64,000 nucleotides of DNA from a virus (taxonomy: Duplodnaviria; Caudoviricetes): the IMG/VR virus record IMGVR_UViG_3300042477_000769. The stretch is one strand, 5' to 3'. The position numbers and the translations under genes were made by a program. Shown piece after piece: positions 8,640-62,614 of this stretch; the stretch's first letter is position 1; every line of letters begins with the position of its first letter. The notes beneath the pieces are model-generated. The model was not told the DNA's origin. It was given only the letters and a program-made list of their open reading frames with translations, and did no database searches.

Positions 8640-8957
8640 ATGCCTGATTTTGGAAATCCTAGAGCCCCGATTGATTATGGTTTTGATTATAATTTCTTTG
8701 CCAAACTTACTGTCAATAATGCTAATTATAATACAAATTGTGATATGATTATTAATTTAGCCGCTCCGACGTATGCGGTGTCGTTTCAGTTGGAGAGCGG
8801 GACCCGAATTGAGTACTCCTTTAACGGCATCACCACCCATGGCGACATGATCCTTTCCGAAGCCAGCACCAACCTATTATTTCAAAACAGAGTCATCTCT
8901 AAAATATGGTTTAGAGGCGATGGCTATGTTCGAGTAGAAGCATGGGCCATTAGATAA
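8640..8957 (+). CDS. Small beta-rich hypothetical protein, possibly virion-associated
   Basis: Strong SD (AGGAGGAG), 105 aa, contains a DGY motif. Confidence 0.6.
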   Translation: MPDFGNPRAPIDYGFDYNFFAKLTVNNANYNTNCDMIINLAAPTYAVSFQLESGTRIEYSFNGITTHGDMILSEASTNLLFQNRVISKIWFRGDGYVRVEAWAIR

Positions 8958-8972
8958 TTTATAAGAAAGACC

Positions 8973-11200: not shown

Positions 11201-11202
11201 AA

Positions 11203-11665: not shown

Positions 11666-12007
11666 ATGAGCAACATTTTGCAATATATGCCAGGAATGCA
11701 GGCGACAATTTATTTAGAAACCAAAAGTAGTGATGGTTATCGAACAGATAGTCCCACTCTCCCAATGGTCAATAAAATTATTTTTCCGGCATTAACCTTA
11801 GCAGCTAACTATCCGAGTCCAATGACCAAAGTAGAGACTGGATTATATGTAGCTCAATTTACTCTTCCTACCGGAGCGGCTTCGATTGGCAGTTATTTAG
11901 TCGATATCTCCTATACTCATCCTACTACTAATATAGTAAATACTGATATTTATCAGGTTATTGTGACAGCACCCTATGGCAATTTTACAGTTAATACTAC
12001 TATATAA
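11666..12007 (+). CDS. Small Ig-like/beta-sandwich virion protein
   Basis: TGLYVAQFTLP...GSYLVDISY resembles the N-terminus of the next gene (IGKYSYIFTIP...GVFQDIWEG). Confidence 0.5.
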   Translation: MSNILQYMPGMQATIYLETKSSDGYRTDSPTLPMVNKIIFPALTLAANYPSPMTKVETGLYVAQFTLPTGAASIGSYLVDISYTHPTTNIVNTDIYQVIVTAPYGNFTVNTTI

Positions 12008-12034: not shown

Positions 12035-12934
12035 ATGGTAATCAAAGCACGCGGAGAAACTTTAGATGTGACGGATCAAGTTAATTTGATCGTACAATTT
12101 AAAGATTCAGCAGGAAGCCCAGTTAATACTGATTCGTTTCCTAGAATTTCTATTGTTCAACCCAGCGGATTAGTCTTATTAGCTCCAACTTCTGCCGGAG
12201 TAACCCAAGTAGGTATCGGTAAATACTCTTATATTTTTACTATCCCTATTAATGGACCTTATGGGGTGTTTCAAGATATTTGGGAAGGGTATATTAATGG
12301 ATTTCGAGTGGAAGCCTTATTTAATTTTGTCGTGGTTAAAACCGATATTCCAGCAATCAATACTGATGGTTATGCTCATTTAGGTGATAGTGTTCCTTTT
12401 AATTACTCCCAAGCGGCCATTAAAAATATTAATAAATTATTAAAATCATTACGAGCCAGATTAAATAGTCAAGGTAAAGCCAAAGCCACAGATAGTTATG
12501 GTAATGTTATTTATGTAGATTGTGATATTTTTTCTATTGATATGTTAGTTACTTTCTTAGCTACTGCTTTATGGGACTTTAATCAAGTGCCATTTTTTAC
12601 ATTCTTTCAATTTGATGATGATAATTTCGTTGAACAATTTGGAGAAATTTTAGTAGAAGGTGCCACCCTCTATGCTTTAGCGTCTAAAGCGTTAATTGAA
12701 AGAGGAAGAGAGTTTCAAATTACCGATAATGGATTAAATTTTAATCCTCCTACCGTGAGTGATTTGATGAATACTCAGTATAGTAGTTTGTTGAGCCATT
12801 ACTGGGAAAAGTTGAAGTTCATAAAAGCCTCCCTCCGCCCTGCCCCTCGTGGCCTGGGCGTCTTTGGGATGAGTTCGGGGCTGAACCCGGCCTTCGCTAG
12901 ATTAAGACATCTGCGGGCACGCAGATTAATCTAG
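12035..12934 (+). CDS. Putative head-tail adaptor (neck) protein with an N-terminal Ig-like domain
   Basis: Helical C-terminal half with the adaptor-like pattern ALASKALIERGREFQITDNGLNF; position upstream of the tail module. Confidence 0.5.
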   Translation: MVIKARGETLDVTDQVNLIVQFKDSAGSPVNTDSFPRISIVQPSGLVLLAPTSAGVTQVGIGKYSYIFTIPINGPYGVFQDIWEGYINGFRVEALFNFVVVKTDIPAINTDGYAHLGDSVPFNYSQAAIKNINKLLKSLRARLNSQGKAKATDSYGNVIYVDCDIFSIDMLVTFLATALWDFNQVPFFTFFQFDDDNFVEQFGEILVEGATLYALASKALIERGREFQITDNGLNFNPPTVSDLMNTQYSSLLSHYWEKLKFIKASLRPAPRGLGVFGMSSGLNPAFARLRHLRARRLI

Positions 12935-14782: not shown

Positions 14783-16735
14783 ATGGTATTTTATCCTAAT
14801 CCCGTTAGAGCTGGAACACAAGTAGTTAGTAGTTTAGGCGATGGTTATACTATTAATGTCAAATGGTTTCAAGCCATTCCATCCGTTAAAAGCAATAAAA
14901 TTGCGTATAATATTTATTATTCAACAGTTAAAGACGCGGTGTTTTTAGAAGGGCCCAAATTACTATCTATTGATGAATGTTTGGAAGCCAATATTATTGG
15001 TTTAACGCCAGGACAAGAATATTTTGTGGCAGTCCGGCCCATTGAATATAATTCTAATTTTTATAATTTATCATTATTACCTATTGCTCATGATAATTTA
15101 AGATATTACCCACAAAGCATTTTACGAGAAAATATCACTAATAGTTCTTTACTTATTCCTTTATTAGATGTGACTGATTTTCCTTCTACCGGTGTTATTA
15201 AAGTAGGAGTTGAGTTAATTCAATATTCTTCTGTGGATATTGCCAATAACAATTTAATTGTTCCCGCTCCTACTGCCGCTACTCCCGCCCAATTGGTTGA
15301 TTTAGGTGGTGGTAATTTTTATGAACCTTTAGTCTCCAATGTAGGACAAGGTAGTATAAATAATTTATCTGTAGGAACTGGAATTACTGAAACCTGGACA
15401 ATTCGATGTGTAGGAGTACAGAGAGATCCTTCTAATAATCCAATTGCTAATACGGCTAAATTTATTGCTATTGGATCCATTACTGGAACTCGATATGATG
15501 GATATGGTAATCAAATTATTTGGCAAGCTAATGGTACAGTAGTTAGTAATGGAGTATTAACTTTTGGAATTACAGAAACTTCTCCAGTTTTTCGTGAGGG
15601 AGATGGATTTAGGGTAGAAGTAATTGGAGCAGTAGCCGGAAGTAGTGGAGGAAGAGGCTATGATAATAGCGTAGCTCGGTTACATACTACTGCTGGATTT
15701 GATGGTTTGCGTATTTGGGACACTAATATTCCATTTTTTGTCATTGGAGAAAGCCAGATGTTTGACCGTATTTTTATGTGTCAATCTAGGTTTGAATATC
15801 CTAATCATGCATTTACCTTAGTAGATGGGTATCATCAAGTATTAACAGATATTTTATCTACTGATTTATCGGAAGCCGATGCTTCTAACGTTAATTTTCC
15901 AATGTATGATTATGCTGGATATCATCGTACAGATCCAGTACAATTATTAAATGGCACTTGTGTGGGCAGCTATTTAGGCGGAGAGCAAGGGTGCATTGAT
16001 GGATACGGCAATTTTCAAATATTTAGAGGCATGTCATTACAGGATCAAAACACTCAACGTCAAGAGATTTTGTTATCAGTCACAGGAAGAGATGCAATTT
16101 TAATTCGTCGAGTCCAAACTGGAATTACCTGTTCTTGTTATTTAGCCTCTAGTGAATATCAAGATGATAGATGTCCTAAATGTTATGGAACTAAATTTGT
16201 GTTTGGTTACCAGCAATATTTTAATCCTAGAATTTCTAGTGGTCGTATTAGAGTCAGAATTGGCCCCACACCAGAAGGATTAAAAATGTATGAAGCTGGT
16301 TTAGAGTCAGAGTTCCCAATTGATGTTTGGACATTAACCGTACCAACTATTAAAATGAGAGATGTAATAGTATTATTTGATCAAACTGGAGTTAATGAAG
16401 AATTTCGATATGAGGTGACTGAAGTTAATAGAAATAATACTATTGTAGGATTACAAGGTGGCCAAAAATTTAGAGCTATTCGAGTCAGAAAAACAGATCC
16501 AATTTATCAAATTAGAGTGTTTAGAGATAGCTCTATGTTTCCGAGTAAATTAAATACTAGCATTGGATTTGTCACAGGAATACCACCACATACTCATGAA
16601 ATTACGGTAAGTGAAAAAATAACTGCGGTTAATCAAATTAATCAAACAACTGATATTTCTGCTTCTCATAATCATCCCATTGTTAATGGGGTAGTCATGG
16701 AAGTATTAGGACATACTCATACGATTATTATTTGA
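14783..16735 (+). CDS. Putative head-closure/neck protein with an FN3-like N-terminus, a Zn-binding Cys cluster and a His-rich tail
   Basis: INVKW...YNIYY...YFVAVR (FN3-like); CSC...CPKC; beta-barrel C-terminal half (RYEVTEVNR). Confidence 0.55.
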   Translation: MVFYPNPVRAGTQVVSSLGDGYTINVKWFQAIPSVKSNKIAYNIYYSTVKDAVFLEGPKLLSIDECLEANIIGLTPGQEYFVAVRPIEYNSNFYNLSLLPIAHDNLRYYPQSILRENITNSSLLIPLLDVTDFPSTGVIKVGVELIQYSSVDIANNNLIVPAPTAATPAQLVDLGGGNFYEPLVSNVGQGSINNLSVGTGITETWTIRCVGVQRDPSNNPIANTAKFIAIGSITGTRYDGYGNQIIWQANGTVVSNGVLTFGITETSPVFREGDGFRVEVIGAVAGSSGGRGYDNSVARLHTTAGFDGLRIWDTNIPFFVIGESQMFDRIFMCQSRFEYPNHAFTLVDGYHQVLTDILSTDLSEADASNVNFPMYDYAGYHRTDPVQLLNGTCVGSYLGGEQGCIDGYGNFQIFRGMSLQDQNTQRQEILLSVTGRDAILIRRVQTGITCSCYLASSEYQDDRCPKCYGTKFVFGYQQYFNPRISSGRIRVRIGPTPEGLKMYEAGLESEFPIDVWTLTVPTIKMRDVIVLFDQTGVNEEFRYEVTEVNRNNTIVGLQGGQKFRAIRVRKTDPIYQIRVFRDSSMFPSKLNTSIGFVTGIPPHTHEITVSEKITAVNQINQTTDISASHNHPIVNGVVMEVLGHTHTIII

Positions 16736-16784: not shown

Positions 16785-18140
16785 ATGGCAAACCCTCCAA
16801 ATCCTACAAACCCTAATATTACTACTGGCGCGACTACGGGCCGAGTAGCGGCAGATCGATATGATTTTCAAAAACATATAGTAGGAGAAGATTTTCGACA
16901 TGATGGCTATTCTTTAGATTTAACACCACCCGTCGTTATTAATTCAGTATCTTATCCTAATGTTCATGCCGCTATTTCTCAGCTAGCTAATTTAATAAAT
17001 CCACCACCTCCGCCTGATGCCACGGCTTCAGTTAAAGGTTTAGTAAGATTAGCTGGCGATTTAGCCGGAACCAGTACCAGTGCGTTAACTCCCAGAGTTT
17101 CTGGTTTACAAGGATATCCAGTTAATACTTTAACTCCTACTTCGGGTCAAATCTTAACTTGGAATGGTAGTGCTTGGGGCCCAGCAGCCGCTCCTGTTAG
17201 TTTTACCGCAGGTGGAGATTTAACAGGGTCTAGTACTGATCAAGAGGTAATAAGTTTATCTGGAGCGGCTAATCTAGTTACTATGTTATGTGGAATTTTT
17301 ACCTGGGATCCTGCTATTAGCAATCCAACTATTTCACAACTAGCAGAGCCATCAACTAATGCAAGAAATTTAACAGTAGTAGCTCAATCTGCCACCGCAT
17401 CAGCTACAAATGGGGGCGCTTTAAGACTTAGAGGCGGAACTAGTGGAGCTGGTGGTTTAGGTGGAGGAATAGAATTTCAAGTGGCAGGACAAAGATTATT
17501 ACATGCGTCAGAAGTTGCTTCGGGTCGTAGAGTTTTAGCTTTAGCTGGTAGTAGCAATGTTACTACAACTAATATGCCCGCTAATACTGGAGATAGAGTT
17601 ATTTTTATTCATGATAGTGCGACTGCGCCTACTACTGGCATTCCAGTAGGCGGAGTTATTTTATATTCCAAAGCAGGAGTATTGTGGAATAAAAATGCTG
17701 ATGGTTATGATTTTGCAATTGGATCTAGCCCTAATCCTAGAATAAATGGAGATGAAAAAACTTCATTTATATTTGAATATCGTGCAGAAGTTGTTACGAC
17801 TACTGGAACAACAGATGAGATGTTTACTAAAATTTTTAGTGATCCTAATTTTTTTGACTCGACTGTGAGAGTAGAAGCCAAGATTTTAGGCAGACAAAAT
17901 CCTACAGCTAATGCTATGATTGTTAATTTAACCAATTCTTATGTTGTTAATAGTGCTGGAACATTAACTGCTATGGGTGTTATTAGTAGTATAGACCCTA
18001 GAAATACTGCTGGAGCCTCTGGTTGGACTGTTCCAACTATTACTATTTCTGGAAACAAATTAGATATAGTGTCTGGAGCCAATGCGTCAACAACTATTCA
18101 TTGGGCCGCATTTATCAATATATATGTCAATCACTATTAA
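16785..18140 (+). CDS. Fibre/whisker-like trimeric virion protein
   Basis: PDATASVKGLVRLAGDLAG and GQILTWNGSAW.P fibre motifs; Gly/Thr/Ala-rich. Confidence 0.65.
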   Translation: MANPPNPTNPNITTGATTGRVAADRYDFQKHIVGEDFRHDGYSLDLTPPVVINSVSYPNVHAAISQLANLINPPPPPDATASVKGLVRLAGDLAGTSTSALTPRVSGLQGYPVNTLTPTSGQILTWNGSAWGPAAAPVSFTAGGDLTGSSTDQEVISLSGAANLVTMLCGIFTWDPAISNPTISQLAEPSTNARNLTVVAQSATASATNGGALRLRGGTSGAGGLGGGIEFQVAGQRLLHASEVASGRRVLALAGSSNVTTTNMPANTGDRVIFIHDSATAPTTGIPVGGVILYSKAGVLWNKNADGYDFAIGSSPNPRINGDEKTSFIFEYRAEVVTTTGTTDEMFTKIFSDPNFFDSTVRVEAKILGRQNPTANAMIVNLTNSYVVNSAGTLTAMGVISSIDPRNTAGASGWTVPTITISGNKLDIVSGANASTTIHWAAFINIYVNHY

Positions 18141-32709: not shown

Positions 32710-32718
32710 GGGTAACAG

Positions 32719-34884: not shown

Positions 34885-34910
34885 TTCCAACAACTAATGA
34901 GAGATAATTT

Positions 34911-40825: not shown

Positions 40826-40827
40826 TT

Positions 40828-42861: not shown

Positions 42862-42868
42862 GGTGAAT

Positions 42869-47133: not shown

Positions 47134-47172
47134 TATCTAATATTTCCACATTAAATAGTAGGAGTAACCGGG

Positions 47173-51784: not shown

Positions 51785-54700
51785 TGGAAAATCTGAGAAT
51801 TTTAAATATCAAAGTCATAGATAGCTCCAACATTGAAGCTACTTTTACTGATAATTTGATTACTAATTTAATTAAAGAAAATGTAGTTATTACTTCTAAT
51901 ACTGCCAAAGTTCCTAATTCTGAAGTATTAGAAATAACTATTAAAGGTGCAACTTTATCTATTACTTGCCAACCTCTAACTCCACTAGCAGATTACTTTG
52001 TTGAATTTAAATCTGTCTTACCTTTGTATCCATTCCAATCAGTTAATGGAACGGCTAGAGTAGTAGAAGATGGTATTTCTAATAAGTATTTAATTACTGC
52101 TCCGTTAGGCATTGACAATCCAGTTAAAAATTATTTAAATAGTTATTATAATGGAAATATTTATAATCATGAAGATGAGAATAGTATCGTTGCTAAGTTA
52201 ATAAATTCTTATGCTGTCAATTTCTCTAAGGCATTATATGATATTAGACAATTAAAAAATGAAAATTATCTCAATGTTGACATTGTCGATGAGCCTAAAG
52301 TAAGAGGAGCCGGACCAGTAGATAGATTAACTGAAGAAGGCGCCTATCAAATAGTTCGTGTAGGTCGTACTCCAACTGGTACTTTTGTTAGTAATACTAT
52401 TCCTTTTGATATTTTTCCTCGTAACCCTATTACTTTACAAAGAACAGTCTCAGTAGAATTATTAACAGCTAACTCTATTAATGCTAAAACCTTTTTTAAT
52501 ATTAATGATTTAATACTTAACTTGAGTAATGCCCCGGTTACTAAAGTAAATAGTATCGTCTTTACTTTAAATTCTGTATCAGCAGTTTATACCTATGATA
52601 TTGCTAAATATGGATACCAAATATTAGACTCCAGATATGATCAAGAGTTTGGCTTTACTTACTTATTATTAGAAAATAATCAAATTAAATTAAACGATCA
52701 AATTTTAGAAGATCCTTTATTTGAATTAGATAAAATTATTAGAGTAGATGTTAATTATGAATATAAAAATTTAGGTATCGTAGTTAATCCAGATACTGTT
52801 AATGTGTATTCTATACAATCAGCTGTTCGAGAAGTTATTCCACCTATTATTAATGTTTTTAGTTTAAAACATGCCCCATTAGTAGACGGAAATAACAATA
52901 TACCTACTATAGGTGGTATTCAATTTTTAGATCCTAATTCAAATTTAAACACACCACATCCAGCGTTTAAATTTGAATTGCCTTATCGATTAGAAGCGTT
53001 ACCATCTACTCCGGGACAATACGCAATTGATTATGCTACTGGTACAGTTTATGTTTATGGAGCAGATTTAACCAATGATGGTACTGGGCCATTTCCGCCA
53101 TTAGCTAATTATAAATATCGATTAACCTATCAGTCAGAGATAGATTACGTTTATGATACAGATTTATTAGATTTAGTGGCACTACCAACTGGAAGCTTAT
53201 TAGATTTTGATGGAACTATTAATTTTGAATATGAAGAAGTTTTTATTCCTGGACAAGATTATGAGGCTAATTTACATTTAGAAGAATTAACAGAAAGAGT
53301 CGGGAATAATTTAATTGCTTTAAATGCTTTTAGAACTAAAAAAGGCCCCATTACTAATGTCTTCAGAATTTTAAATGAAACTTCTGGTGAAATTTATACT
53401 TTAAATCGTTGGACTGAAGATAAAGTCTACTTTAGATATAATACGCCGCCTAGAATTGTTGCTCAAACTGGAGAGAGAGTTTCTTTTGAAACTATTCCTA
53501 ATGAATTGTTATTTGTTAATACTTCATTGATTAACAGTGGTAGCATTAAAATATTTAATATACCACTAAATAATAATAACATTATTTCTTCTTCAGAAGA
53601 TGGATTAGGATCTTCCATTAATACTAGTGTGTCATTTTCTAATCAAACTATATTTGTCTCAGAAAAATGGTTTAATCGAGGATTATCTGTTTCTTTAAAT
53701 TTAGAAAATTTAAATAATGTAGGGGAATACATGATAGATTATACCAATGGTATTGTTTATTGTGCAGTCTCTACTAGCCAAGATTTTAATATTGGAACCG
53801 TTACTTACAAATATAAAAATATCATTCCAAATTTCCCGCATATTATTACTGCGGATGATATTTACTATCAAATTAATCCATTATCTAATAAAAACAAAAG
53901 TTTTACTGTTTTTTCTTCCGGAGAAAATAGCATTATACCAGAAACATTAGATTTTTCTGATGAAACATTTTTAAACAATACTGATTCCTCGCCCTATCAA
54001 TTGTTTAGTGGGCAAATTGGATCTTTTGTGGGACAAAACTTTGTTGGCGGAGTAACTAATCAAATTAAATTTATTCGTGGAGTATACGAATTTTTTGATT
54101 TACAAAATAGTGCTCATCCTTTTAATTTTTCTGGATTTGCCGCACATGATGGATTTAATATTACACTCAATCCCACAGTTAAGCAAACACTAAGTTCAGT
54201 CCAATATGATGGAACAGATTATTTTGTGTTAATTAATGAGAATATTCCATATCTCTCTCCTAGTATTAACTATACTTTTAGCATTATTCGGTCCTCTGAT
54301 TCTCAAGAGTTATGGGATGTCATGGGCACAATAGTTCCAGGTAATCCATTAAAACTAGTTTTATCAGGACTTAACTCGCCTCAAACTAATGATCAAGTAA
54401 CTGTTAATTATACAATTGAGATTAAAGACTTATCAAGAGTAATTGTTGATTACAATAAAGGAGATTATTTTATTGATTATACTTATTTGGCTGATGAAAT
54501 TGTAGTTAGTTATGAATACGGTGATAACGTATTAGATTTTCGTCGTAGTACCAATATTCCAACTAATACAGAATATTATGCCTCCTATAAAGTTGGCGCT
54601 TTACGCGATGCATTATTAAAGAATTTTGGAACCTTAGTCAATGTAGCAGAGTTATCGGTATTTGATGTGGATTTTAAGCGCGAGCGTTATCGAGATGCAT

Positions 54701-57700
54701 TATTAGCTGCCTTATCTTCTTTTATCCAAGGGGCGACATTAACAGCTATTAAAAATATTGGAAAAACAATTTCTCATATTGAGCCAATAGTAACCGAATC
54801 ATCATTTATTAATTGGTCATTAGGAAATAGTTTATTATCTCCTCAAATGATAGAGACTACTGGAGACATAACTTTATTACCTGCTAAATTTGGTAATGGA
54901 GCTTTATTAACTCATGAAGGTCAGACTATTTCTGTCCCAGTAAATAGCAATATTAGATTAGAAGAAGGGACTTTTGAAACTTGGATTATTCCTCAATGGA
55001 ATGGATTAGATAATGATGCCGTTCTTACTTTTAATGTTTTAAAAGATGGATATGCCATGCCAGCCAATCAAATATTTATTGGCGCAGAAGAATACCATCC
55101 CACGTTAGTGAGTGGCAAGTTTTCTGTTAATAAAAATATTTTAGGAACACCTAATACTAATAAAGATGGAGTCTTTATTTATTATGATAAAGATTTATCT
55201 GGAGATTTCAATCGTTGGTATGTTCAAGTAATTGATGGCTATGTAAATTCTATAAGCTCTACTTATAAAATTACTATTCAATCTACTGGCAGCTTTTATG
55301 ATAGCAAAAGTTTAGTCTTGCCAAAATCTAATAATGTATCTATTACTACGGGAACTAATTCTTTAACGTTAAATATTACTGGAGGATCTGCTCTTGATGA
55401 AGGTGTGACATTTATTTCCGATGTAGACCATTATGTATTAGATTTTGGCAAGGAAAAAAATAAAAGTCGAGTCTCTTTATACAAAGATATTTCCGGTTAC
55501 ATGGTATTTAAAGTTTATGATCGATTAGGTACGGCTTATATGGTTAGTGCCGATGTATCTGCCTGGCGTGCGGGAGAAGCTCATCATGTAGCAGCGTCAT
55601 GGAAATTAAATAATTTTAATAGTCGTGATGAGATTCATCTATTTTTAGACGGATTTGAAGTTCCTAACATCATTAAGTATGGGCAAAAATTGCGCCCATA
55701 CTTGCATGAAAAATTTAGAGCTATTAATACTGAAGAAATTATTGGTCTTTCTAATCGAGATATTATTTCTTCTGTGGATTTAGTTACTATAGCTGGTAGC
55801 ACTCAAGTCACTTCTTCTATTAATTTTAGTAGTTTTAATATTTTTCCAGGAGATATCATCAATATTGATGAGGTTGGGTTTGCTGAAGCAGGCTATTCTA
55901 TTGTGAGTATTAGTGGTCAATCATTAACATTAAATACTAGCATGCCAGTTTCTTTAAATAATGGAAAATTCTCTATTAATAGAACTTCATTTTCAGTTTC
56001 TTCAGATATTGATTTAGCTCCTAATATTGCAGTTAGCACTCTGAGTCCGATGGTTATTAATAGTGATTTGCAAGGAAGCATTGGATCAAATATTGTTACT
56101 TCTACTTCAGTAAATTTTGTGACAGCTGGAGTGAAACCAGGGTTTATCATTAGAATTGATAATATTTCTTTAGAATCCACTTATCATATTTTACAAGTCA
56201 GTGGAAATACTCTGGTATTAACTGACCCAATGCCTGTTAACTTTACTAATGAAGATTTTCAAGTGTACTCTACTACTGAACAAGAGATTCCGGGAGTAAG
56301 AGCGGTTCGCCCTTCTTATTCTATTAGTAAAGATCTTAATTTTAATAATGTTTTAACTATTTCTAATAATGTCTTGGCTAAAGATTTAATTTTAGTGCGT
56401 ACTTTAGGAATTAATCATCGTAAAGTAAAAAAGCAACATTATGTGTGGAGCAATGGTGAAGAGAATATTCTGAAAACACAATTACCAGCCCCCGTTGCGT
56501 TAGATGAAGTTAAAATAACAAAAATTATTTTGCCTACTACTGCTATTGGGCCGGCGAATTCTACGTTGACTTTAGGTCAATTTGTTTCTAATAATTTAAC
56601 TGCTTATCCTACGACCAATGATCAAACAGGCAGAACCATTAGCATAACTATTAGTGGAAATAATACAGATTTTATTGCACCAGCAGTAGTAACTATTAAT
56701 GGAGTCTCTGGAAACGCTACTATTAATGAGAATTTATCATTTACGGAATATGGCACTTTAGATACTGTTAATTTATTCCAAAGCATTAATTATATTACGG
56801 TAACAGTTACGCCTATTGATTCTACTAAAAATGCCTTAACTTTAATCGCAAAAGAAAAGTACTCTATTACACAAGTGGAAGCTAGTGGTAGTGTGCCAGT
56901 TATTAGATTCAGTTATGTTATTGGTTCTGGTTATACTTTATTTAATGATACCTCGTATTCTGTGAGAGATGAAAATTTCTTATTTAGTAGTGTAGATATT
57001 GGAAATTATTTATTAATTCAGACTCCTATTACAGTAGCAGGATATTATCAAATAACCGGATTATCTACAGATAGAAAAACTATTCATATTCAGCCAGCAG
57101 CACAGGCAGATCCATTACCTTTAGCTAATTTTACCAATGGTACCTATCAAGTATTAAATGTAAATCAATCTCGAAGTGGATTACAAAATGGATTCTTTAC
57201 TTTAGAAAATAAAGAGTTGCCAGGTCAACCATACTTTTTAAGTAATGGATTTTATGAATTAGAATATTCTACTTATACTAAAATTAATTTAGACCCTATT
57301 AATAGTAAAGCTTTTATTGGTTCTAATTTTGTTGGGAACTTATCAGCGAATGCCATTTTAGATCAAGTAAAAACATATTCAGTGATGTTAACTGATACTA
57401 GAATAGGGGAATCAATTCCGGCCAATCAAAGATCTATTACTAAAGATTTTAATTCATTAAAACCATTAACCGCAGATAGTAATACATTAATGTTAATTAA
57501 TTTTGATAGTGTACCATTTGAAAATGAAGCTAAATTTTATATTAGCTCTACCCCTAGCAAAGATCATTTCCAATCTTCTGTAGTTATTAATGAAAACTTT
57601 GGTAATAGTATTGCGTTTTTAAATAAACCATTAGTGTTAGATAACGAAGGAATTTTAAATACTAAAAGAGAAGGCACTATTGAATTTTGGATGAATCCAT

Positions 57701-58929
57701 TATTTGATACCTCTAACGATCCTAATATGAGATATTATTTTGATGCGTTTGGTGCCGTTATTGAAGAGACCGTCAGTGTTAATAATACTGCAGTTAAATT
57801 AACTGGCCCAGCTAGTAAAATTCTTTATGTAAAATTACCCGGCAATGATGATATTGATTATTTTGCGGGCGGAAAAATTGAAATTGACACTCAAAATGCT
57901 ATTCAAGAAGAAAGCGTTAGTTCTTCCAATAGCAATGTCTTGGTTTCTAAGCCAATCTTACAGGTAATTAGTGTTAAAATTGTAGGAGATTTAACTAATA
58001 CTGACTATTTTGCGAATGGCACCATTAGCTCTAATTTAAAAACTATTTTCTTGGGCAAATTATTGCCTAAAAGTAATTTACCAGTAGTAGTTACTTATCA
58101 AACCACTGAAAATAATAACATTAAACTTAATACTCAAGTTATTAGATTAAATAGAAAATTACCTTATCAAAATACTAAGGTTACCGTGGCCTATGTACCT
58201 CAAGGTTTACAAGGAGATCGAATCTCTATTTTTAAAGATAAAGTCGGTTATCTCAATTTCTCGATTACCGCTTCTGGTATGGACCATGTCGTACGAGCAC
58301 CTACATTGTGGGCTAAAAATACTTGGCATCGAATAAAGGCCAGTTATAAAATAAATGGCGGTGCGGGCCAAGATGAAATGAGATTATTTTTAGATGGCTA
58401 TGAATATGTTAATTTGACATATGGTCAAAACATAATTTATGGAGACTTTCCATTAGTATATGGAATGGCTATTCCGGGAGGCATAAGAAATCGGGATGGG
58501 TATGAATCTTTAATAAATATTAAATTCAAAGATCCTATTAATGAATTATTTATTGGAACGCAGTATACTAGAACCAGCCCAGCTTTCTGCTTATTAGATA
58601 ATTTTAGAATCAGTAATATTTCTAGACCTATCTATGCGCCTTTTGGAGAGCCACTAGATATTAATTACAGTACTAATTTAAGTACAGTCTTTCCTGTCAC
58701 AGAAGATTTATTTACTACTTATTTAATGAATTTCAATAATTTAGTGTTCTTAAATGATGATTTTGCTGTGTTAAAAAATCGAAAAACTGGATTATTTGAT
58801 TTTTCGATAAATATTTTAGATTCTCTGGGTATAGTAAATAGTAATATTAAAAGTAAAGAAGCATTAGAGGCTTTACTTAAAGTATTGAAACCCGCCAATA
58901 GTAGAGTGTTCATCAATTATACTAGGTAA
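51784..58929 (+). CDS. 2381-aa baseplate wedge/receptor-binding protein with two LamG (ConA-like) domains
   Basis: Wedge-like ERYRDALLAAL...GAT..AI and C-terminal LKVLKPANSRV; LamG motifs GTFETW/GTIEFW, HHVAASW/HRIKASY and LFLDG. Confidence 0.7.
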   Translation: MENLRILNIKVIDSSNIEATFTDNLITNLIKENVVITSNTAKVPNSEVLEITIKGATLSITCQPLTPLADYFVEFKSVLPLYPFQSVNGTARVVEDGISNKYLITAPLGIDNPVKNYLNSYYNGNIYNHEDENSIVAKLINSYAVNFSKALYDIRQLKNENYLNVDIVDEPKVRGAGPVDRLTEEGAYQIVRVGRTPTGTFVSNTIPFDIFPRNPITLQRTVSVELLTANSINAKTFFNINDLILNLSNAPVTKVNSIVFTLNSVSAVYTYDIAKYGYQILDSRYDQEFGFTYLLLENNQIKLNDQILEDPLFELDKIIRVDVNYEYKNLGIVVNPDTVNVYSIQSAVREVIPPIINVFSLKHAPLVDGNNNIPTIGGIQFLDPNSNLNTPHPAFKFELPYRLEALPSTPGQYAIDYATGTVYVYGADLTNDGTGPFPPLANYKYRLTYQSEIDYVYDTDLLDLVALPTGSLLDFDGTINFEYEEVFIPGQDYEANLHLEELTERVGNNLIALNAFRTKKGPITNVFRILNETSGEIYTLNRWTEDKVYFRYNTPPRIVAQTGERVSFETIPNELLFVNTSLINSGSIKIFNIPLNNNNIISSSEDGLGSSINTSVSFSNQTIFVSEKWFNRGLSVSLNLENLNNVGEYMIDYTNGIVYCAVSTSQDFNIGTVTYKYKNIIPNFPHIITADDIYYQINPLSNKNKSFTVFSSGENSIIPETLDFSDETFLNNTDSSPYQLFSGQIGSFVGQNFVGGVTNQIKFIRGVYEFFDLQNSAHPFNFSGFAAHDGFNITLNPTVKQTLSSVQYDGTDYFVLINENIPYLSPSINYTFSIIRSSDSQELWDVMGTIVPGNPLKLVLSGLNSPQTNDQVTVNYTIEIKDLSRVIVDYNKGDYFIDYTYLADEIVVSYEYGDNVLDFRRSTNIPTNTEYYASYKVGALRDALLKNFGTLVNVAELSVFDVDFKRERYRDALLAALSSFIQGATLTAIKNIGKTISHIEPIVTESSFINWSLGNSLLSPQMIETTGDITLLPAKFGNGALLTHEGQTISVPVNSNIRLEEGTFETWIIPQWNGLDNDAVLTFNVLKDGYAMPANQIFIGAEEYHPTLVSGKFSVNKNILGTPNTNKDGVFIYYDKDLSGDFNRWYVQVIDGYVNSISSTYKITIQSTGSFYDSKSLVLPKSNNVSITTGTNSLTLNITGGSALDEGVTFISDVDHYVLDFGKEKNKSRVSLYKDISGYMVFKVYDRLGTAYMVSADVSAWRAGEAHHVAASWKLNNFNSRDEIHLFLDGFEVPNIIKYGQKLRPYLHEKFRAINTEEIIGLSNRDIISSVDLVTIAGSTQVTSSINFSSFNIFPGDIINIDEVGFAEAGYSIVSISGQSLTLNTSMPVSLNNGKFSINRTSFSVSSDIDLAPNIAVSTLSPMVINSDLQGSIGSNIVTSTSVNFVTAGVKPGFIIRIDNISLESTYHILQVSGNTLVLTDPMPVNFTNEDFQVYSTTEQEIPGVRAVRPSYSISKDLNFNNVLTISNNVLAKDLILVRTLGINHRKVKKQHYVWSNGEENILKTQLPAPVALDEVKITKIILPTTAIGPANSTLTLGQFVSNNLTAYPTTNDQTGRTISITISGNNTDFIAPAVVTINGVSGNATINENLSFTEYGTLDTVNLFQSINYITVTVTPIDSTKNALTLIAKEKYSITQVEASGSVPVIRFSYVIGSGYTLFNDTSYSVRDENFLFSSVDIGNYLLIQTPITVAGYYQITGLSTDRKTIHIQPAAQADPLPLANFTNGTYQVLNVNQSRSGLQNGFFTLENKELPGQPYFLSNGFYELEYSTYTKINLDPINSKAFIGSNFVGNLSANAILDQVKTYSVMLTDTRIGESIPANQRSITKDFNSLKPLTADSNTLMLINFDSVPFENEAKFYISSTPSKDHFQSSVVINENFGNSIAFLNKPLVLDNEGILNTKREGTIEFWMNPLFDTSNDPNMRYYFDAFGAVIEETVSVNNTAVKLTGPASKILYVKLPGNDDIDYFAGGKIEIDTQNAIQEESVSSSNSNVLVSKPILQVISVKIVGDLTNTDYFANGTISSNLKTIFLGKLLPKSNLPVVVTYQTTENNNIKLNTQVIRLNRKLPYQNTKVTVAYVPQGLQGDRISIFKDKVGYLNFSITASGMDHVVRAPTLWAKNTWHRIKASYKINGGAGQDEMRLFLDGYEYVNLTYGQNIIYGDFPLVYGMAIPGGIRNRDGYESLINIKFKDPINELFIGTQYTRTSPAFCLLDNFRISNISRPIYAPFGEPLDINYSTNLSTVFPVTEDLFTTYLMNFNNLVFLNDDFAVLKNRKTGLFDFSINILDSLGIVNSNIKSKEALEALLKVLKPANSRVFINYTR

Positions 58930-59050: not shown

Positions 59051-62000
59051 ATGACTAAAAGAAGCCCAGTGTCTGCTGAAAAAAATATTTGGTTTGATGC
59101 TCAACAAGTAGATGATACCGACTTAACTGTTGAACAAGACTATAATGATACTATTGATTCAGCCATTATCAACAATCATATTGGTACCGGAGTACTTCCT
59201 GAAGTATTAGTACAAAATGTTATTTTTGATTCCTCATTAGCTACTGGTTTATTAGATGGCGCAGTGATTTCAGTTCAGAATCAACCGAGTGATAATAATT
59301 TAGGAAATCAATTAGAAATTTCTTTAACTGGGTCACAAGTTGGTGGCCGCAAAGCAGTTAAAGTTGCTATCATTGGATTAGATTTTCAAAGTAATCTACA
59401 ATTTGAAACGTTTTATTTTAGAGCTAATGAAATTCAAGTTAGCAGAAAACATTTTACCCAAATTTTAGTTTTACTATTTAATGATTTAAAAGGAAATCCT
59501 AATTTTTCTATGAATCTAGGAGGTCGGTTAGTTATTAAAGAGGCTAAACCTATGACCCTGTCTCGTTCTGCTATGATGGTAGCGCAAGATATTCAGCCCA
59601 ATTTATTTTTTAGAGATTTTTTTACTGGAAATGGCACCGATTCATTAAATAGCTTATTACAAAACGCATTACCATTTTATAATATTGATTCATTAGGAAT
59701 TTATACGGCGGGTATTGATAAAAAAGTATTATTAAATAGTGACGTAACTACTCAAATTGGAGAAAAGTTTCTAGCTACTACCAATAATATTCAAAAAGTT
59801 TCTTTGTTATTATCGGTTAGAAACTTAGAAGTAGGTAGTGAAAATGATTTGGTGTGGAATGGAGACTTAGTAGTTAGCATTTATCCTTTACAATCTGATT
59901 TAGATTGTCCTACTGATATCGCTCCTAGTTTAGCTATTGATTTTGCTCCCTCTAATATTCCATTAGCACAAGTGAGTGTCAATTATACTACTTTAGCTGA
60001 GCAAGGAGTAGTATTAGATTCTGTTCCTCAGCCAGTAGATTTTGTATTTAGCAATAGTCCAATTGCTACCGGCAATGTGTTAAAGCCTAATACTTATTAT
60101 GCGGTAGCGATTAAAAGAAGTGGCTCAGCGAATAAGTGTGATATTTTAATTGAAACGGGCTCTAATTTAATTGCTAATAGCAGAATAACTACTTTTACCG
60201 GAACTTTATGGGTAGATATTCCAGAAGAACAATTATGGTTTAGAGTATGGAATGATGCTGCTAAAGTATCTGATGGTCAAGGTTATGAATCAGGCCATGG
60301 AATTATTATTCCTAAAATTATAGAAGATCAAACTAGTCAAACAAATATTGATTATTCTAAAGAAAATATTCAGTTTGTTGGCAATGATGTTTATCGGGCA
60401 GTAGTTTCAGCAGTTACAGAAGAAAGTACTCCATTACCAGATCAAAGAACAGGCAACTCAGTATTAACTAGACAGCAATTTGTTCCAGAAGTTACTTTAT
60501 TTAATACCCTAGATATTGCTAATTTAGAAGTGACCGCTGAACCATTAATTATTGGATCTATTTCGGATAAAAATAAAAAATTCTTTGATTCTATTTCATC
60601 GTTAATTTCTTCTAAATTATATAGTGCTACTTTTGCCAAAGATGAATTATTAATTAGAATAGTAGATGATCCTACCGACACTACTCGATATGATACTTCG
60701 GTCATTGATTTACAAAGCAAATTGCTAAATGGTGATTTTATTGGCGCTAAATTAATTCCTAATGCCAATAATTCTACTTTATTTTATCGAGTAGCTGATG
60801 CCAAACTATGTACCTATATCTTAGGAGATGTTGATGGTAATGGCGTTATTGATAATAATGATTTAGAGTTATTAAATACTTATGTAGGCACTGATTTAAC
60901 ACAAGGATTACCCTTACAATCTATAGTCACTACTAATGGAACCACCACCACTTTCACTAATGGCTATTTAACTGAGATTCAAGCATTTACTAATTTATTT
61001 GGAGTGACATTTCAGTTAGTAGACGCTACGACTAATGTCGTGGTAGCTAGTGGAACAGATGGCGTATTAATTGCTAACCCTAACGATGCTAGGTTGGCTC
61101 AATTTACTAGCGCGAGCGTTTCTTTTAATAGTGTAGTTGGTATTAGTTCTTATAAATTAGTAGTCTTGATGCCAGGAATTGACTCTGATTATGGTGGATT
61201 TGATATTTCTAGTATTGATGTGCTTACAGATGTTATTACGATTAGAAAAATTATTAGATCAGGCGATGTGCTAGGGCAAATGTTACGTGCAGATGTGGAT
61301 GGAGATTTCCATATCACTAACATTGATGGATATTTATTACAAAGTTATATTGATAAGGTTCCTTTAAGTACTTCTCCAGTTTCTTCATATCCAGCACCGG
61401 CCACGAATCCATATATTAAAATTGGAACCACATTTAACGTATTACGATTCAGATTAGAACAATTTATTGATCGAACAGATGATTATAGTACTTTAATTTC
61501 TGGTCGACCCACTGTGGTTCATCCTGCTCCTGATATCTTTTTAAATGATGGATATTTAGCATTACATAATTTTTCACTATTACCTATTCCAATTACTTTT
61601 CAAAAACAATTGGTGTGGGATGAATCATTAATTGTGTTTAATAGCCACCCTAAAATGGTGCCCAGTGTCTTTACTTCTAATACTGGTTTTATTAAAAATG
61701 AATGTGAAATTAATGGAATTAATTGCAGCGTATATGGATCTAAACCAGATTTTGATCCAGGCAAAGTAGATTACTTTGTGCCAAATAACTTAATTATTGG
61801 TGAAGGTGGAGAAGTTTTTCGTCCAGATGGAAATTTCTATAAAGTAGATTTTGAAGTAGGTACTTTAATTTTAGAAATCCCTGATGGTTTATTTGGAGCG
61901 GAACGTACCATCAATATTTTTGATGATTTCATTTCAGATTATAATGGGGGCGTTACTCGTTTAGGCTTTCCTGCCATGAAATTTGCTGACTGTTCCTATG

Positions 62001-62614
62001 TTAAAGCAGACGCTTTAGTTAAGGATCAAATTAGATTTTCAGTCTCGGTTCAATCATTCTCACCTAATACTAATGGTTTAACTGATGATGGCTATGCTGG
62101 CGTTATTGTGGATGGTAAAATGGGAGTAGCTATTGATTATACTACTGGATTATTAACTTTAAATTTCACTAACTTATATCAAGATGAAGTCTTACCAACC
62201 TTAAGTACTAAAATTCAAGTCCATGTCTTTCTGAAAAAAGGCGGATTTAATAATAAAACTATCTTTGTTGATTCTACTAAAGTACAAAATATATTAAAAC
62301 TAATTAGCGTGTTCAGTGGCGCCAATGATGGCGGACCATCAGCATTAGTTAATATGGAAACTGATATTACCGGAGTATTACCCATTATTCATGGTGGTAT
62401 TGGATTAAATGCTATTGGAGCCAGTGGAACCGTGTTAACTAGTAATGGTTCTGGTTTAAGTTATCAATTCGTGACGGCCAGTAATACTGTTTATACGCCC
62501 ACTACACCTGCACACTGGGCGGGATCGCCTCCTACTACCGTTCAAGCGGCTATTGATCGTATTGCTAAGGCGTATGCCACCGCCGCTCCGCTTGGCAGCC
62601 CAATTCCAGTTTAA
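59051..62614 (+). CDS. Baseplate/fibre-attachment protein with a split dockerin-like pair and a C-terminal fibre motif
   Basis: GDVDGNGVIDNNDLELL and ADVDGDFHITNIDGYLL; GVLPIIHGGIG fibre motif. Confidence 0.6.
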   Translation: MTKRSPVSAEKNIWFDAQQVDDTDLTVEQDYNDTIDSAIINNHIGTGVLPEVLVQNVIFDSSLATGLLDGAVISVQNQPSDNNLGNQLEISLTGSQVGGRKAVKVAIIGLDFQSNLQFETFYFRANEIQVSRKHFTQILVLLFNDLKGNPNFSMNLGGRLVIKEAKPMTLSRSAMMVAQDIQPNLFFRDFFTGNGTDSLNSLLQNALPFYNIDSLGIYTAGIDKKVLLNSDVTTQIGEKFLATTNNIQKVSLLLSVRNLEVGSENDLVWNGDLVVSIYPLQSDLDCPTDIAPSLAIDFAPSNIPLAQVSVNYTTLAEQGVVLDSVPQPVDFVFSNSPIATGNVLKPNTYYAVAIKRSGSANKCDILIETGSNLIANSRITTFTGTLWVDIPEEQLWFRVWNDAAKVSDGQGYESGHGIIIPKIIEDQTSQTNIDYSKENIQFVGNDVYRAVVSAVTEESTPLPDQRTGNSVLTRQQFVPEVTLFNTLDIANLEVTAEPLIIGSISDKNKKFFDSISSLISSKLYSATFAKDELLIRIVDDPTDTTRYDTSVIDLQSKLLNGDFIGAKLIPNANNSTLFYRVADAKLCTYILGDVDGNGVIDNNDLELLNTYVGTDLTQGLPLQSIVTTNGTTTTFTNGYLTEIQAFTNLFGVTFQLVDATTNVVVASGTDGVLIANPNDARLAQFTSASVSFNSVVGISSYKLVVLMPGIDSDYGGFDISSIDVLTDVITIRKIIRSGDVLGQMLRADVDGDFHITNIDGYLLQSYIDKVPLSTSPVSSYPAPATNPYIKIGTTFNVLRFRLEQFIDRTDDYSTLISGRPTVVHPAPDIFLNDGYLALHNFSLLPIPITFQKQLVWDESLIVFNSHPKMVPSVFTSNTGFIKNECEINGINCSVYGSKPDFDPGKVDYFVPNNLIIGEGGEVFRPDGNFYKVDFEVGTLILEIPDGLFGAERTINIFDDFISDYNGGVTRLGFPAMKFADCSYVKADALVKDQIRFSVSVQSFSPNTNGLTDDGYAGVIVDGKMGVAIDYTTGLLTLNFTNLYQDEVLPTLSTKIQVHVFLKKGGFNNKTIFVDSTKVQNILKLISVFSGANDGGPSALVNMETDITGVLPIIHGGIGLNAIGASGTVLTSNGSGLSYQFVTASNTVYTPTTPAHWAGSPPTTVQAAIDRIAKAYATAAPLGSPIPV

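What the first reader, a model, noticed from the sequence alone, without database searches (positions are those of the whole stretch)
8640..62614. DGY tripeptide strongly enriched in outer virion proteins: candidate sequon for a phage virion-glycosylation system
Seen (hand count): 30 DGY in predicted virion proteins, out of about 96 DG dipeptides (about 31%), whereas Tyr is only about 4-5% of residues. Positions: 8919; 11732; 12365; 14840, 15497, 15824, 15998; 16902, 17700; 19425, 19956, 20460, 21084, 23268, 24114; 25101; 27498; 44189, 44492, 44618, 45170; 49388, 50012; 55045, 55234, 58393, 58495; 61325, 61547, 62087. There are none among about 8 DG in the glycan enzymes and none among about 16 DG in the inner tail core (tube, tape measure, initiator, hub, spike). 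The Gly codon varies (GGT/GGC/GGA/GGG) and all listed hits are in frame, which points to protein-level selection. DGYGN recurs three times and DSYGN twice. Established: Tyr O-glycosylation occurs on some bacterial S-layer proteins, and short sequons direct bacterial protein glycosylation. Inference: DGY marks surface loops whose Tyr is glycosylated by the adjacent TPR-GT cluster, giving a glycan-coated virion. Alternatives are a docking motif for a decoration or assembly factor, a maturation-protease site, or a beta-turn preference (unlikely to reach 31%).
Basis: partly seen in the sequence, partly recalled or inferred. Interest (0 to 1): 0.92.

Follow-up and report, generated by a model that had tools for sequence, protein, structure and literature searches.

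The report
DGY tag on huge-phage tail proteins
The outward-facing neck, sheath, baseplate and fibre proteins of this uncultured huge phage and its whole clade carry the tripeptide Asp-Gly-Tyr about ten times more often than chance, while the inner tail proteins carry none, which points to an undescribed mark that something reads, most plausibly a sugar-adding enzyme of the phage.

Summary
The window has 31 in-frame DGY among 115 DG (3 to 5.5 expected). DGY is by far the most over-represented tripeptide. In the outer virion proteins it is 30 of 83 DG (p about 1e-21). In the inner tail proteins and the sugar enzymes it is 0 of 25.

Selection acts on the protein, not the DNA: synonymous codons vary as in the background. 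The motif is specific to this clade. About 70 IMG/VR relatives show 451 DGY of 2028 DG, whereas T4, phage G and an Eggerthella phage do not.

- DGY has been gained many times at loop positions that otherwise hold polar Thr, Asn or Ser.
- Every one of 58 sheath homologues keeps at least one DGY.
- Five inner tail protein families have no DGY in 135 DG columns, although 15 of those columns carry DGF.

This fits a site read by another factor that needs the Tyr hydroxyl, probably a bulky modification.

The link to the adjacent TPR-GT cluster is weak. Near-complete relatives without it are equally enriched. However, all of them carry a conserved GT4-GT2 cassette after the last fibre gene. Glycosylation remains unproven.

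This scan noted the same motif before on other DNA (at least 23 notes in at least 13 genomes). I found no paper describing it.

The parts
2..8624 (+). Sugar-pathway and glycosyltransferase cluster. ORF 2-2347 is cut at its 5' end and holds a weak TPR-like peptide-binding hit, a GT4 domain and a methyltransferase. The remaining ORFs are a GT1 (2344-3429), an FkbM methyltransferase (3431-4090), a GT1 (4051-5208), a cupin (5241-5663), a sugar C-methyltransferase (5667-6899), an NDP-sugar 4,6-dehydratase (6896-7864) and an oxidoreductase (7839-8624). The cluster has 8 DG and no DGY.
   Evidence: Pfam hits. Counts. A syntenic copy exists only in relative G007.
8640..8957 (+). 105-aa conserved small protein; DGY at 8919.
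11666..12007 (+). 113-aa conserved small protein; DGY at 11732. The G007 orthologue has DGYRMDGY at this place.
12035..12934 (+). 299-aa protein, very conserved (81% identity to G008). It may be a neck or connector protein, on an Atlas lead only. DGY at 12365; DSY at 12491 in a column that is DGYGN in G007 and G008.
14783..16735 (+). 650-aa virion protein with a C-terminal Cys cluster and HxH motifs. DGY at 14840, 15497, 15824 and 15998. The G008 orthologue has DGY..DGYADGY near its N-terminus.
16785..18140 (+). 451-aa fibre-like protein; DGY at 16902 and 17700.
18606..24704 (+). 2032-aa large outer structural protein. DGY at 19425, 19956, 20460, 21084, 23268 and 24114; DSY at 20130 in a column that is DGY in 19 of 24 homologues. 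Across 25 homologues there are 34 different DGY columns.
24708..25529 (+). 273-aa protein just upstream of the sheath gene. DGY at 25101, kept in 47 of 48 homologues.
26250..29294 (+). Tail sheath, 1014 aa. DGY at 27498 (residues 417-419), kept in 50 of 58 homologues. Relatives have 16 further scattered DGY columns, all within residues 59-692. The conserved C-terminal core has none and holds an invariant DGF (residues 842-844).
   Evidence: PHROG sheath hit. Fold matches to phi812, T4 and KP1 sheaths. Alignment and model.
30082..30768 (+). 228-aa protein following the sheath gene (tube position), without DGY. The family has 95 DG and no DGY across 56 homologues.
30784..31668 (+). HNH homing endonuclease with one DGY at 31465. 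It is probably a chance occurrence in a mobile gene.
31685..43219 (+). It has 15 DG and no DGY in the window. The four families aligned here (31685, 32719, 34911, 35774) have 369 DG and no DGY across 29-50 homologues each.
43244..45445 (+). 733-aa baseplate-region protein; DGY at 44189, 44492, 44618 and 45170.
45445..47604 (+). 562-aa protein and a 143-aa baseplate protein (PHROG baseplate and wedge-subunit hits). They contain no DG at all.
47669..51784 (+). Baseplate J-like protein, 1371 aa; DGY at 49388 and 50012.
   Evidence: Pfam Baseplate_J.
51784..58929 (+). 2381-aa baseplate or fibre protein; DGY at 55045, 55234, 58393 and 58495.
59051..62614 (+). 1187-aa distal fibre protein; DGY at 61325, 61547 and 62087. 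In relatives G007 and G008 the conserved GT4-GT2 cassette lies shortly after this gene. The window ends at 64000, before that point.

Best explanation
DGY is a short linear motif read by another factor. Selection has placed it, again and again, on solvent-exposed turns of the proteins that form the outside of the tail: neck, sheath outer domains, baseplate periphery and fibres. It has been kept out of the proteins buried inside the tail.

The most likely reader is a phage enzyme, made together with the late genes, that modifies the tyrosine hydroxyl in the cytoplasm before assembly. My first choice is O-glycosylation started by one of the phage glycosyltransferases. The clade-wide candidate is the GT4-GT2-GT2-dehydratase cassette that follows the last fibre gene in relatives. 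The TPR-GT4-methyltransferase cluster at 2-8624 would then be a lineage-specific addition, either building a methylated deoxysugar glycan or serving as an alternative starter.

Shown: enrichment, clade specificity, protein-level selection, repeated gains, exposure-type positions, Tyr versus Phe discrimination, absence from inner proteins, and glycosyltransferase genes beside the tail module.

Inferred: that the motif is read by an enzyme, that Tyr is the acceptor, and that the modification is a glycan.
For: - Enrichment in the window: 30 of 83 DG in outer proteins against 0 of 25 in inner proteins and sugar enzymes.
- The motif is general in the clade and concentrated in the tail module. Relatives' loci have 451 DGY of 2028 DG against 65 expected. 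G007 has 45 of 149 in the module against 25 of 307 elsewhere; G008 has 44 of 133 against 29 of 291.
- It is not general in phages. T4 structural proteins have 5 of 67, phage G 4 of 47, and LE2-3 4 of 128.
- Selection is on the protein. GAC makes up 27% of Asp codons in DGY against 22% in the background, and all Gly and Tyr codons are used.
- Repeated multi-substitution gains. The sheath has 17 DGY columns and the 2032-aa protein has 34. In the other homologues these columns hold LGS, NAM, AGT, DAN or TAT.
- Presence is obligatory but position is flexible. All 58 sheaths have at least one DGY. Seven of the eight that lost the common site have three elsewhere, and the eighth has one.
- Tandem copies occur, such as DGYDGYDGY, DGYADGY and DGYRMDGY.
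- The hydroxyl matters. Where Tyr is absent from a DGY column, the residue is Phe in only 3.5% of cases, against 22% at other Tyr columns, and 78% are polar or small.
- Inner tail families have 135 DG columns; 15 of these carry F and none carries Y. Outer families have 52 with Y and 9 with F.
- In the sheath model, most of the scattered sites lie in loops or at strand ends, all within residues 59-692 and none in the conserved C-terminal core.
- Glycosyltransferase genes flank the tail module on the same strand in the window and in all five large relatives examined.
- No conserved sulfotransferase or Fic enzyme was found.
Against: - There is no direct evidence of any modification.
- Only one homologue of the TPR-GT cluster next to the motif-bearing genes was found in nine relatives searched, yet all are equally enriched.
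- The outgroup L123 has a fused homologue of the GT4-GT2 cassette (28% identity) but 0 DGY in 23 DG of its three structural-size proteins next to the sheath gene. The cassette is therefore not sufficient.
- Such cassettes could instead glycosylate DNA or make polysaccharide.
- No sequon for tyrosine glycosylation is known to me, and my literature searches found none.
- A complex prediction of the GT4 with a DGY-rich peptide gave no answer.
- The capsid proteins were not identified, so I cannot say whether the head carries the mark.
- Solvent exposure was inferred from substitutions and secondary structure, not measured on coordinates.
Confidence: 0.4

Rival explanations
1. DGY is a non-covalent docking motif. 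A phage protein such as a decoration protein, a hair-like fibre, an assembly chaperone or a Kelch-type propeller binds it on many different outer proteins.
For: - The motif lies on exposed turns of many unrelated outer proteins, and every sheath subunit keeps at least one.
- Tandem copies suggest that number of binding sites matters.
- The clade encodes a Kelch-repeat protein that hits a PHROG virion-structural-protein family. From general knowledge, Kelch propellers bind short motifs.
Against: - Three residues with free flanks give little binding energy or specificity.
- Docking on the finished particle does not predict the absence of DGY, with DGF tolerated, from inner proteins.
- The Kelch protein itself carries DGY in its blades.
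Confidence: 0.2
2. DGY is the site of another tyrosine modification, such as phosphorylation, sulfation, nucleotidylation or oxidation to DOPA or a cross-link, rather than glycosylation.
For: - The Tyr versus Phe discrimination fits any chemistry on the hydroxyl.
- A small kinase-like protein of about 200 aa is present in G007 and G008, with the motifs GxGxxGxV, VIK, HxDxHPRN and IDFD read from their sequences. G009 has a weak hit to the same Pfam region. All Pfam scores are below the cut-off.
Against: - No conserved Sulfotransfer_3 or Fic enzyme was found.
- The kinase-like gene lies far from the late module, and it was not detected in G005 or G006.
- Small modifications explain the exclusion from inner proteins less well than a bulky glycan does.
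Confidence: 0.12
3. DGY has an intrinsic role and needs no reader. It could be a turn that stabilises these particular beta-rich folds, or a surface patch of Asp carboxylate plus Tyr ring that binds host glycans or metal ions weakly at many sites.
For: - Alternating Tyr and Ile at positions -1, -3, -5 and -7, with Trp or Gly straight after the motif, suggest a strand-turn-strand setting.
- Gly is already present in many of the columns where DGY arose.
- Asp and aromatic residues are typical of sugar-binding sites (general knowledge).
Against: - NGY, which contains the classic NG hairpin turn, is not enriched: 2 of 115 NG.
- Tyr does not interchange with Phe.
- The beta-rich T4 fibres gp34 and gp37 have 0 DGY in 20 DG.
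- An intrinsic benefit does not predict the absence of DGY from inner proteins.
- The enrichment is confined to one clade.
Confidence: 0.15
4. One reading: the adjacent TPR-GT cluster (2-8624) is the enzyme system that glycosylates the DGY tyrosines.
For: - The cluster lies directly upstream of the motif-bearing genes on the same strand.
- ORF 2-2347 combines a weak hit to a peptide-binding TPR domain (E = 0.0065) with a GT4 domain and a methyltransferase. That architecture recalls protein glycosyltransferases such as OGT and FlmG (general knowledge).
- G007 keeps the cluster in synteny.
Against: - No homologue was found in eight of nine relatives searched, among them three records rated 97-100% complete, yet their DGY enrichment is the same.
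- The TPR hit is below the Pfam cut-off.
Confidence: 0.1
5. The pattern is a DNA-level signal (GATGGNTAT) or a chance or compositional artefact.
For: - All 31 window sites use GAT.
- All 35 DNA matches are on one strand.
Against: - GAT makes up 88% of Asp codons in the window, so 31 of 31 has p of about 0.02.
- In relatives with higher G+C, GAC is used in 27% of DGY against 22% in the background.
- All genes carrying the motif are on the + strand.
- Matches outside the coding frame are at the chance level.
- No shuffle reached 35 matches.
Confidence: 0.01

Closest known systems
Virion glycosylation of mycobacteriophages by phage-encoded glycosyltransferases (Freeman et al. 2023, as cited in PMC12619734)
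   Same: Phage glycosyltransferase genes sit beside the structural genes. The proposed result is a glycan coat on exposed virion proteins, made in the cytoplasm.
   Different: In the mycobacteriophages the glycans sit on the C-termini of the capsid and tail tube subunits. Here the tube family has no motif at all, and the mark is a Tyr-containing tripeptide scattered over neck, sheath, baseplate and fibres. Nothing here has been shown by mass spectrometry.
Bacterial glycosylation sequons: Campylobacter PglB D/E-X-N-X-S/T; Bacteroidota general O-glycosylation D-(S/T)-(A/I/L/V/M/T); cytoplasmic NGT/HMW1C N-X-S/T
   Same: Each is a motif of three to five residues with an acidic residue one or two positions before the acceptor. 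Such sites lie on exposed loops and are gained and lost during evolution.
   Different: The acceptor here would be Tyr, with Gly in between. The PglB and Bacteroidota systems act in the periplasm with membrane oligosaccharyltransferases, which phage tail proteins never meet.
Tyrosine O-glycosylation of S-layer proteins (Paenibacillus alvei, Thermoanaerobacter), glycogenin, and the PaTox toxin
   Same: Tyrosine is the sugar acceptor, so the chemistry has a precedent.
   Different: No DGY-type consensus is known to me for any of these. The S-layer systems use a membrane O-oligosaccharyltransferase outside the cell. Glycogenin (GT8) and PaTox use GT-A enzymes unrelated to the GT4 and GT2 genes found here. 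Membership was not tested.
N-glycan sequon turnover on viral envelope proteins (influenza HA, HIV Env)
   Same: The evolutionary signature is the same. A short motif appears repeatedly at new exposed positions while its total number is maintained.
   Different: Those viruses infect eukaryotes and use the host's ER machinery and Asn sequons.

Membership tests
Sequon-directed protein glycosylation | A short motif that contains a residue able to accept a sugar, over-represented in the target proteins | tested here: met
   DGY is 30 of 83 DG in outer proteins, z = 10.8. Tyr is not replaceable by Phe.
Sequon-directed protein glycosylation | The motif lies on exposed loops and shows gain and loss between relatives | tested here: met
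   There are 17 and 34 DGY columns in two protein families. Most of the sheath's scattered sites map to loops or strand ends of the model, and polar residues occupy these columns in homologues. Solvent exposure was not measured on coordinates.
Sequon-directed protein glycosylation | A transferase that recognises the motif | tested here: inconclusive
   Glycosyltransferase genes flank the tail module in the window and in all five large relatives. The outgroup with a homologous fused GT has no DGY. The complex prediction gave no answer.
Sequon-directed protein glycosylation | A glycan covalently bound to the motif residue | not testable with these tools
   This needs mass spectrometry or structural density.
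Mycobacteriophage-type virion glycosylation | Phage glycosyltransferase genes next to the structural genes | tested here: met
Mycobacteriophage-type virion glycosylation | The targets are the C-terminal ends of the capsid and tail tube subunits | tested here: not met
   The tube-position family has 95 DG and no DGY in 56 sequences. The motifs are internal and scattered. The capsid was not identified.
Generic beta-turn preference (type I' turn followed by an aromatic residue) | Also seen in other beta-rich phage structural proteins | tested here: not met
   T4 structural proteins have 5 of 67, with gp34 and gp37 at 0 of 20. Phage G has 4 of 47 and LE2-3 has 4 of 128.
Generic beta-turn preference (type I' turn followed by an aromatic residue) | Asn-Gly and Phe or Trp should serve as well as Asp-Gly and Tyr | tested here: not met
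   NGY is 2 of 115 NG, DGF occurs 8 times and DGW once. Phe makes up only 3.5% of the replacements for Tyr.
DNA sequence motif | Fixed bases at synonymous positions, and occurrence regardless of reading frame | tested here: not met
   Codon choice in DGY equals the background in relatives. Copies outside the coding frame are at the chance level.
S-layer type tyrosine O-glycosylation | A membrane O-oligosaccharyltransferase acting on a lipid-linked glycan outside the cytoplasm | not tested
   No search for Wzy_C-type transferases was run. Phage tail proteins assemble in the cytoplasm (general knowledge).

The most novel reading that the evidence does not exclude
A whole clade of huge phages codes a tyrosine-directed sequon, Asp-Gly-Tyr, into the exposed turns of its outer tail proteins. 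Cytoplasmic phage glycosyltransferases then cover the tail, but not its inner channel, with a glycan coat. This would be the first sequon for tyrosine O-glycosylation and the first genetically mapped glycan coat on a phage tail. Each lineage would tune it by gaining and losing sites, as enveloped animal viruses do.
Probability: 0.33. Interest if true: 0.92.

Novelty: new variant of a known kind. Interest (0 to 1): 0.8.

Why it matters
If DGY is a modification site, it gives a rule that can be read from sequence for which faces of a phage particle are decorated. It would also be a new acceptor motif for protein engineering: a three-residue tag on tyrosine, written in the cytoplasm. And it would open a way to study how huge environmental phages shield or adapt their tails.

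The contrast between saturated outer proteins and motif-free inner proteins could also be used to predict which proteins of uncultured phages are exposed.

The hypothesis can be tested without growing the phage. Co-express a DGY-bearing domain with the glycosyltransferase cassette, then compare its mass with that of a DGF mutant.

Tried and rejected
- The window's whole genome is not held.
- GenBank phages contain no close relative. Only distant sheath hits came back.
- Literature searches for a DGY motif, tyrosine glycosylation in phages, and glycosylated jumbo phages found nothing relevant. The 'moraphage' paper (PMC12619734) reports four core glycosyltransferase groups in large aquatic Bacteroidota phages. 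I did not test whether that is the same clade.
- Complex prediction of the conserved GT4 of relative G008 with the DGY-rich N-terminal 80 residues of its 535-aa neck-region protein gave no answer (score 0.00). This is not evidence either way.
- I tried to find the major capsid protein in relatives using Pfam Gp23 and Phage_capsid and using PHROGs on candidate ORFs. Nothing was found, so the status of the head is unknown.
- An Atlas search of the conserved 334-aa ORF inside the GT cassette returned only uncharacterised viral proteins.
- Sulfotransfer_3 gave only one weak sub-threshold hit in a single relative, and Fic gave none in the five large relatives.
- The sheath model is of medium quality (pLDDT 65.5, with a poor C-terminal core). 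No coordinates are returned, so solvent accessibility could not be computed. The fold search confirmed only that the protein is a sheath.
- I looked for a member of the clade that has lost DGY, for a presence/absence comparison. None exists among the 58 sheath lineages.
- Outgroup contexts were few and short.
- The maturation-protease-site idea was rejected because the motif lies in tail and fibre proteins with free flanks.

Full report
**What the window is.**
The 64-kb window has 32% G+C, and nearly all its genes lie on the + strand.
- Bases 2-8624 encode a sugar pathway: three GT4/GT1-type transferases, one of them fused to a methyltransferase and preceded by a weak TPR-like hit; an FkbM methyltransferase; a cupin; a sugar C-methyltransferase; an NDP-sugar 4,6-dehydratase; and an oxidoreductase.
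- From 8640 to 62614 runs the neck, sheath, inner tail, baseplate and fibre module of a contractile-tailed phage. The sheath is at 26250-29294 (PHROG hit; fold matches to the phi812, T4 and KP1 sheaths). A Baseplate_J-like protein is at 47669-51784, and a small baseplate protein is at 47173-47604. Four HNH/EndoVII homing endonuclease genes are interspersed.
- GenBank phages contain no close relative. IMG/VR holds 73 loci with a sheath 45-76% identical, on contigs of up to 481 kb. The window therefore belongs to an uncultured clade of huge phages.

**Check of the observation.**
One more site exists, at 31465 in an HNH gene.
- The window has 31 DGY among 115 DG, with Tyr at 3.8% of residues. The expectation is 2.9 from composition and 5.5 from a first-order model.
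- DGY is the most over-represented tripeptide, at z = 10.8. The other high scorers are one to four copies of rare Cys, Met or Trp tripeptides.
- The effect is specific on both sides of the Gly. NGY occurs in 2 of 115 NG, D precedes 31 of the 66 GY, and DGF occurs 8 times and DGW once.
- Grouped by protein class, outer proteins have 30 of 83 DG (binomial p = 8e-22), inner tail proteins 0 of 17, and sugar enzymes 0 of 8 (Fisher p = 9e-5).
- The DNA pattern GAYGGNTAY occurs 35 times on the + strand and never on the - strand, against 4.6 expected. Only four copies are outside the coding frame.

**Protein or DNA.**
In the window all 31 sites use GAT. GAT makes up 88% of Asp codons, so this is weak evidence (p about 0.02). 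In the relatives, which reach 49% G+C, DGY uses GAC 123 times out of 451 (27%) against 22% in the background. Gly and Tyr codons also follow the background. Selection therefore acts on the peptide.

**Clade-wide and module-specific.**
- In the 76 related loci, DGY accounts for 451 of 2028 DG against 65 expected.
- I assembled two nearly complete relatives from fetched pieces: G007 (394 kb) and G008 (361 kb).
- In both, the motif is concentrated in the tail module. G007 has 45 of 149 DG in the module and 25 of 307 elsewhere. G008 has 44 of 133 in the module and 29 of 291 elsewhere.
- Outside the module, the clearest carrier is a Kelch-repeat protein that hits a PHROG virion-structural-protein family. 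It has 5 DGY of 5 DG in G007, and its G008 orthologue has the insertion DGYDGYDGY.
- Controls are not enriched to this degree. T4 structural proteins have 5 of 67 DG, with none in 20 DG of the long fibres gp34 and gp37. Phage G has 4 of 47, and Eggerthella phage LE2-3 has 4 of 128.

**How the sites evolve.**
I aligned the homologues of eight window proteins.
- The sheath (58 sequences) has one common DGY column, present in 50 of 58, and 16 scattered ones. In the scattered columns the other sequences have LGS, NAM, AGT, DAN or TAT, so DGY arose through two or three substitutions at once.
- The 2032-aa protein has 34 DGY columns in 25 sequences, three of them nearly universal. The 273-aa protein has one column, kept in 47 of 48.
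- Every one of the 58 sheaths has at least one DGY. Of the eight that lost the common site, seven carry three others and one carries one.
- The window's two DSY sites (12491 and 20130) lie in columns that are DGY in orthologues.
- Flanking residues are almost free. Trp (about 9-fold) and Gly (about 2-fold) are favoured straight after Tyr. Tyr and Ile alternate at positions -1, -3, -5 and -7, as in a strand leading into a turn.

**Exposure and the role of the hydroxyl.**
- Where homologues lack Tyr in a DGY column, they have Thr, Asn, Ser, Val or Gly. Phe accounts for 3.5% of these, against 22% at other Tyr columns. Polar or small residues make up 78%, against 54%.
- In the AlphaFold model of the sheath (pLDDT about 80-88 for residues 40-580), most of the scattered columns map to loops or strand ends. 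All lie within residues 59-692. The conserved C-terminal core, which by analogy with solved sheaths faces the tube, has none. It holds an invariant DGF at residues 842-844.
- The five inner tail families have 464 DG in 135 distinct columns. Fifteen of those columns carry Phe after DG and none carries Tyr. The three outer families have 52 columns with Tyr and 9 with Phe. These sequences are related, so the counts are not independent. Still, the reversal of the Tyr-to-Phe ratio is hard to explain without selection against DGY inside the tail.

**The enzyme question.**
- A homologue of the TPR-GT4 protein (2-2347) was found in only one of nine relatives searched. That relative is G007, which keeps the whole cluster in synteny. 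G005, G006 and G008, rated 97-100% complete, and G009 (83%) lack it. Their DGY enrichment is nonetheless the same. The adjacent cluster therefore cannot be the general cause.
- No relative is free of glycosyltransferases. All five large genomes have a GT4 of about 375-400 aa and two GT2 genes. In G008 and G007 these lie, together with a 4,6-dehydratase, a short distance after the last fibre gene on the same strand, followed by TubZ and a UvsW-type helicase. The window ends before the place where this cassette would lie.
- An outgroup phage (L123, sheath 36% identical) has the same neighbourhood with a fused GT4-GT2-GT4 protein, 28% identical to the G008 GT4. It has 0 DGY in 23 DG of the three structural-size proteins examined: its sheath and two large ORFs upstream of it. 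The cassette alone therefore does not predict the motif.
- Searches for Sulfotransfer_3 gave only one weak sub-threshold hit in one of the five relatives, and Fic gave none. A small kinase-like protein is present in G007 and G008, with a weak hit to the same Pfam region in G009, but it lies far from the late genes.
- A complex prediction of the G008 GT4 with a DGY-rich peptide gave no answer.

**Reading.**
- The data fit a motif that something reads. It needs Asp and the phenolic hydroxyl. It sits on exposed turns, it is required in number rather than in position, and it is harmful inside the tail.
- A bulky covalent modification made before assembly explains all of these points. Glycosylation is the best candidate, because glycosyltransferases are the only modifying enzymes found beside the module. 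I put it at about 0.4.
- A docking motif (0.2), another tyrosine modification (0.12) and an intrinsic surface property (0.15) remain open.
- The specific claim that the adjacent TPR-GT cluster is the enzyme gets about 0.1. That claim is a subset of the glycosylation reading, so the figures are not meant to add to one.

**Relation to earlier notes of this scan.**
The same motif was noted on other windows of this clade: at least 23 notes in at least 13 genomes. Follow-up readers reached similar conclusions. My own tests agree on the enrichment, the repeated gains and the cassette after the fibre genes. They qualify the claim that the motif and the glycosyltransferase genes are present or absent together, because of outgroup L123. 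I found no publication describing the motif.

Noticed in passing
window 8973-9770, 25526-26203, 29320-30051, 30784-31668: Four HNH/EndoVII-type homing endonuclease genes sit between structural genes, on both sides of the sheath gene. They are paralogous to one another and to copies in relatives G007 and G008.
   Followed up: partly
window 10726-14193, minus strand: A small island of four minus-strand ORFs lies inside the plus-strand late module. It includes a LigT-like 2',5' RNA ligase or phosphoesterase (13705-14193) and a 253-aa protein with 9% Tyr.
   Followed up: partly
window 26250-29294, sheath residues about 579-655: A domain of about 75 residues inside the sheath recurs in many large proteins of up to 4418 aa in the metagenomic protein library, with up to 14 matched stretches per protein. 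It is probably an Ig-like decoration module.
   Followed up: no
L101:14305-17076 (relative G008): The phage tubulin TubZ gene of this relative is interrupted by an intein carrying a LAGLIDADG homing endonuclease.
   Followed up: no
L080:17055-17645 (G007), L114:11341-11979 (G008): A minimal protein-kinase-like protein of about 200 aa, with the motifs GxGxxGxV, VIK, HxDxHPRN and IDFD. G009 has a weak hit to the same Pfam region. All Pfam scores are below the cut-off.
   Followed up: partly
L098:14267-15484 (G007), L113:12130-13368 (G008): A Kelch-repeat beta-propeller protein, matching a PHROG virion-structural-protein family, in which the blade turn reads DGY. It has 5 DGY of 5 DG in G007. The G008 copy has a tandem DGYDGYDGY insertion.
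   Followed up: partly
window 12491 and 20130: DSY variants lie in alignment columns that are DGY in orthologues. They may be decayed sites or tolerated variants of the motif.
   Followed up: yes
window 14783-16735, C-terminal 230 residues: A Cys cluster (CSCY...CPKCYG) is followed by three HxH motifs (HTHE, HNHP, HTHT), as in the metal-binding tips of phage fibres and needles.
   Followed up: no
L116:6737-7138 (G008): A 133-aa ORF made largely of Gly-Tyr repeats with embedded DGY (GDGYGYGYGYGYSDGYGNGYGDGYGY...). I did not determine whether it is a real gene or what it does.
   Followed up: no
G007 165166-166292: In G007, the relative that also has the TPR-GT cluster, the conserved GT4 of the cassette is split into two overlapping ORFs of 94 and 291 aa. 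This could be a frameshift, a sequencing error or gene decay.
   Followed up: no
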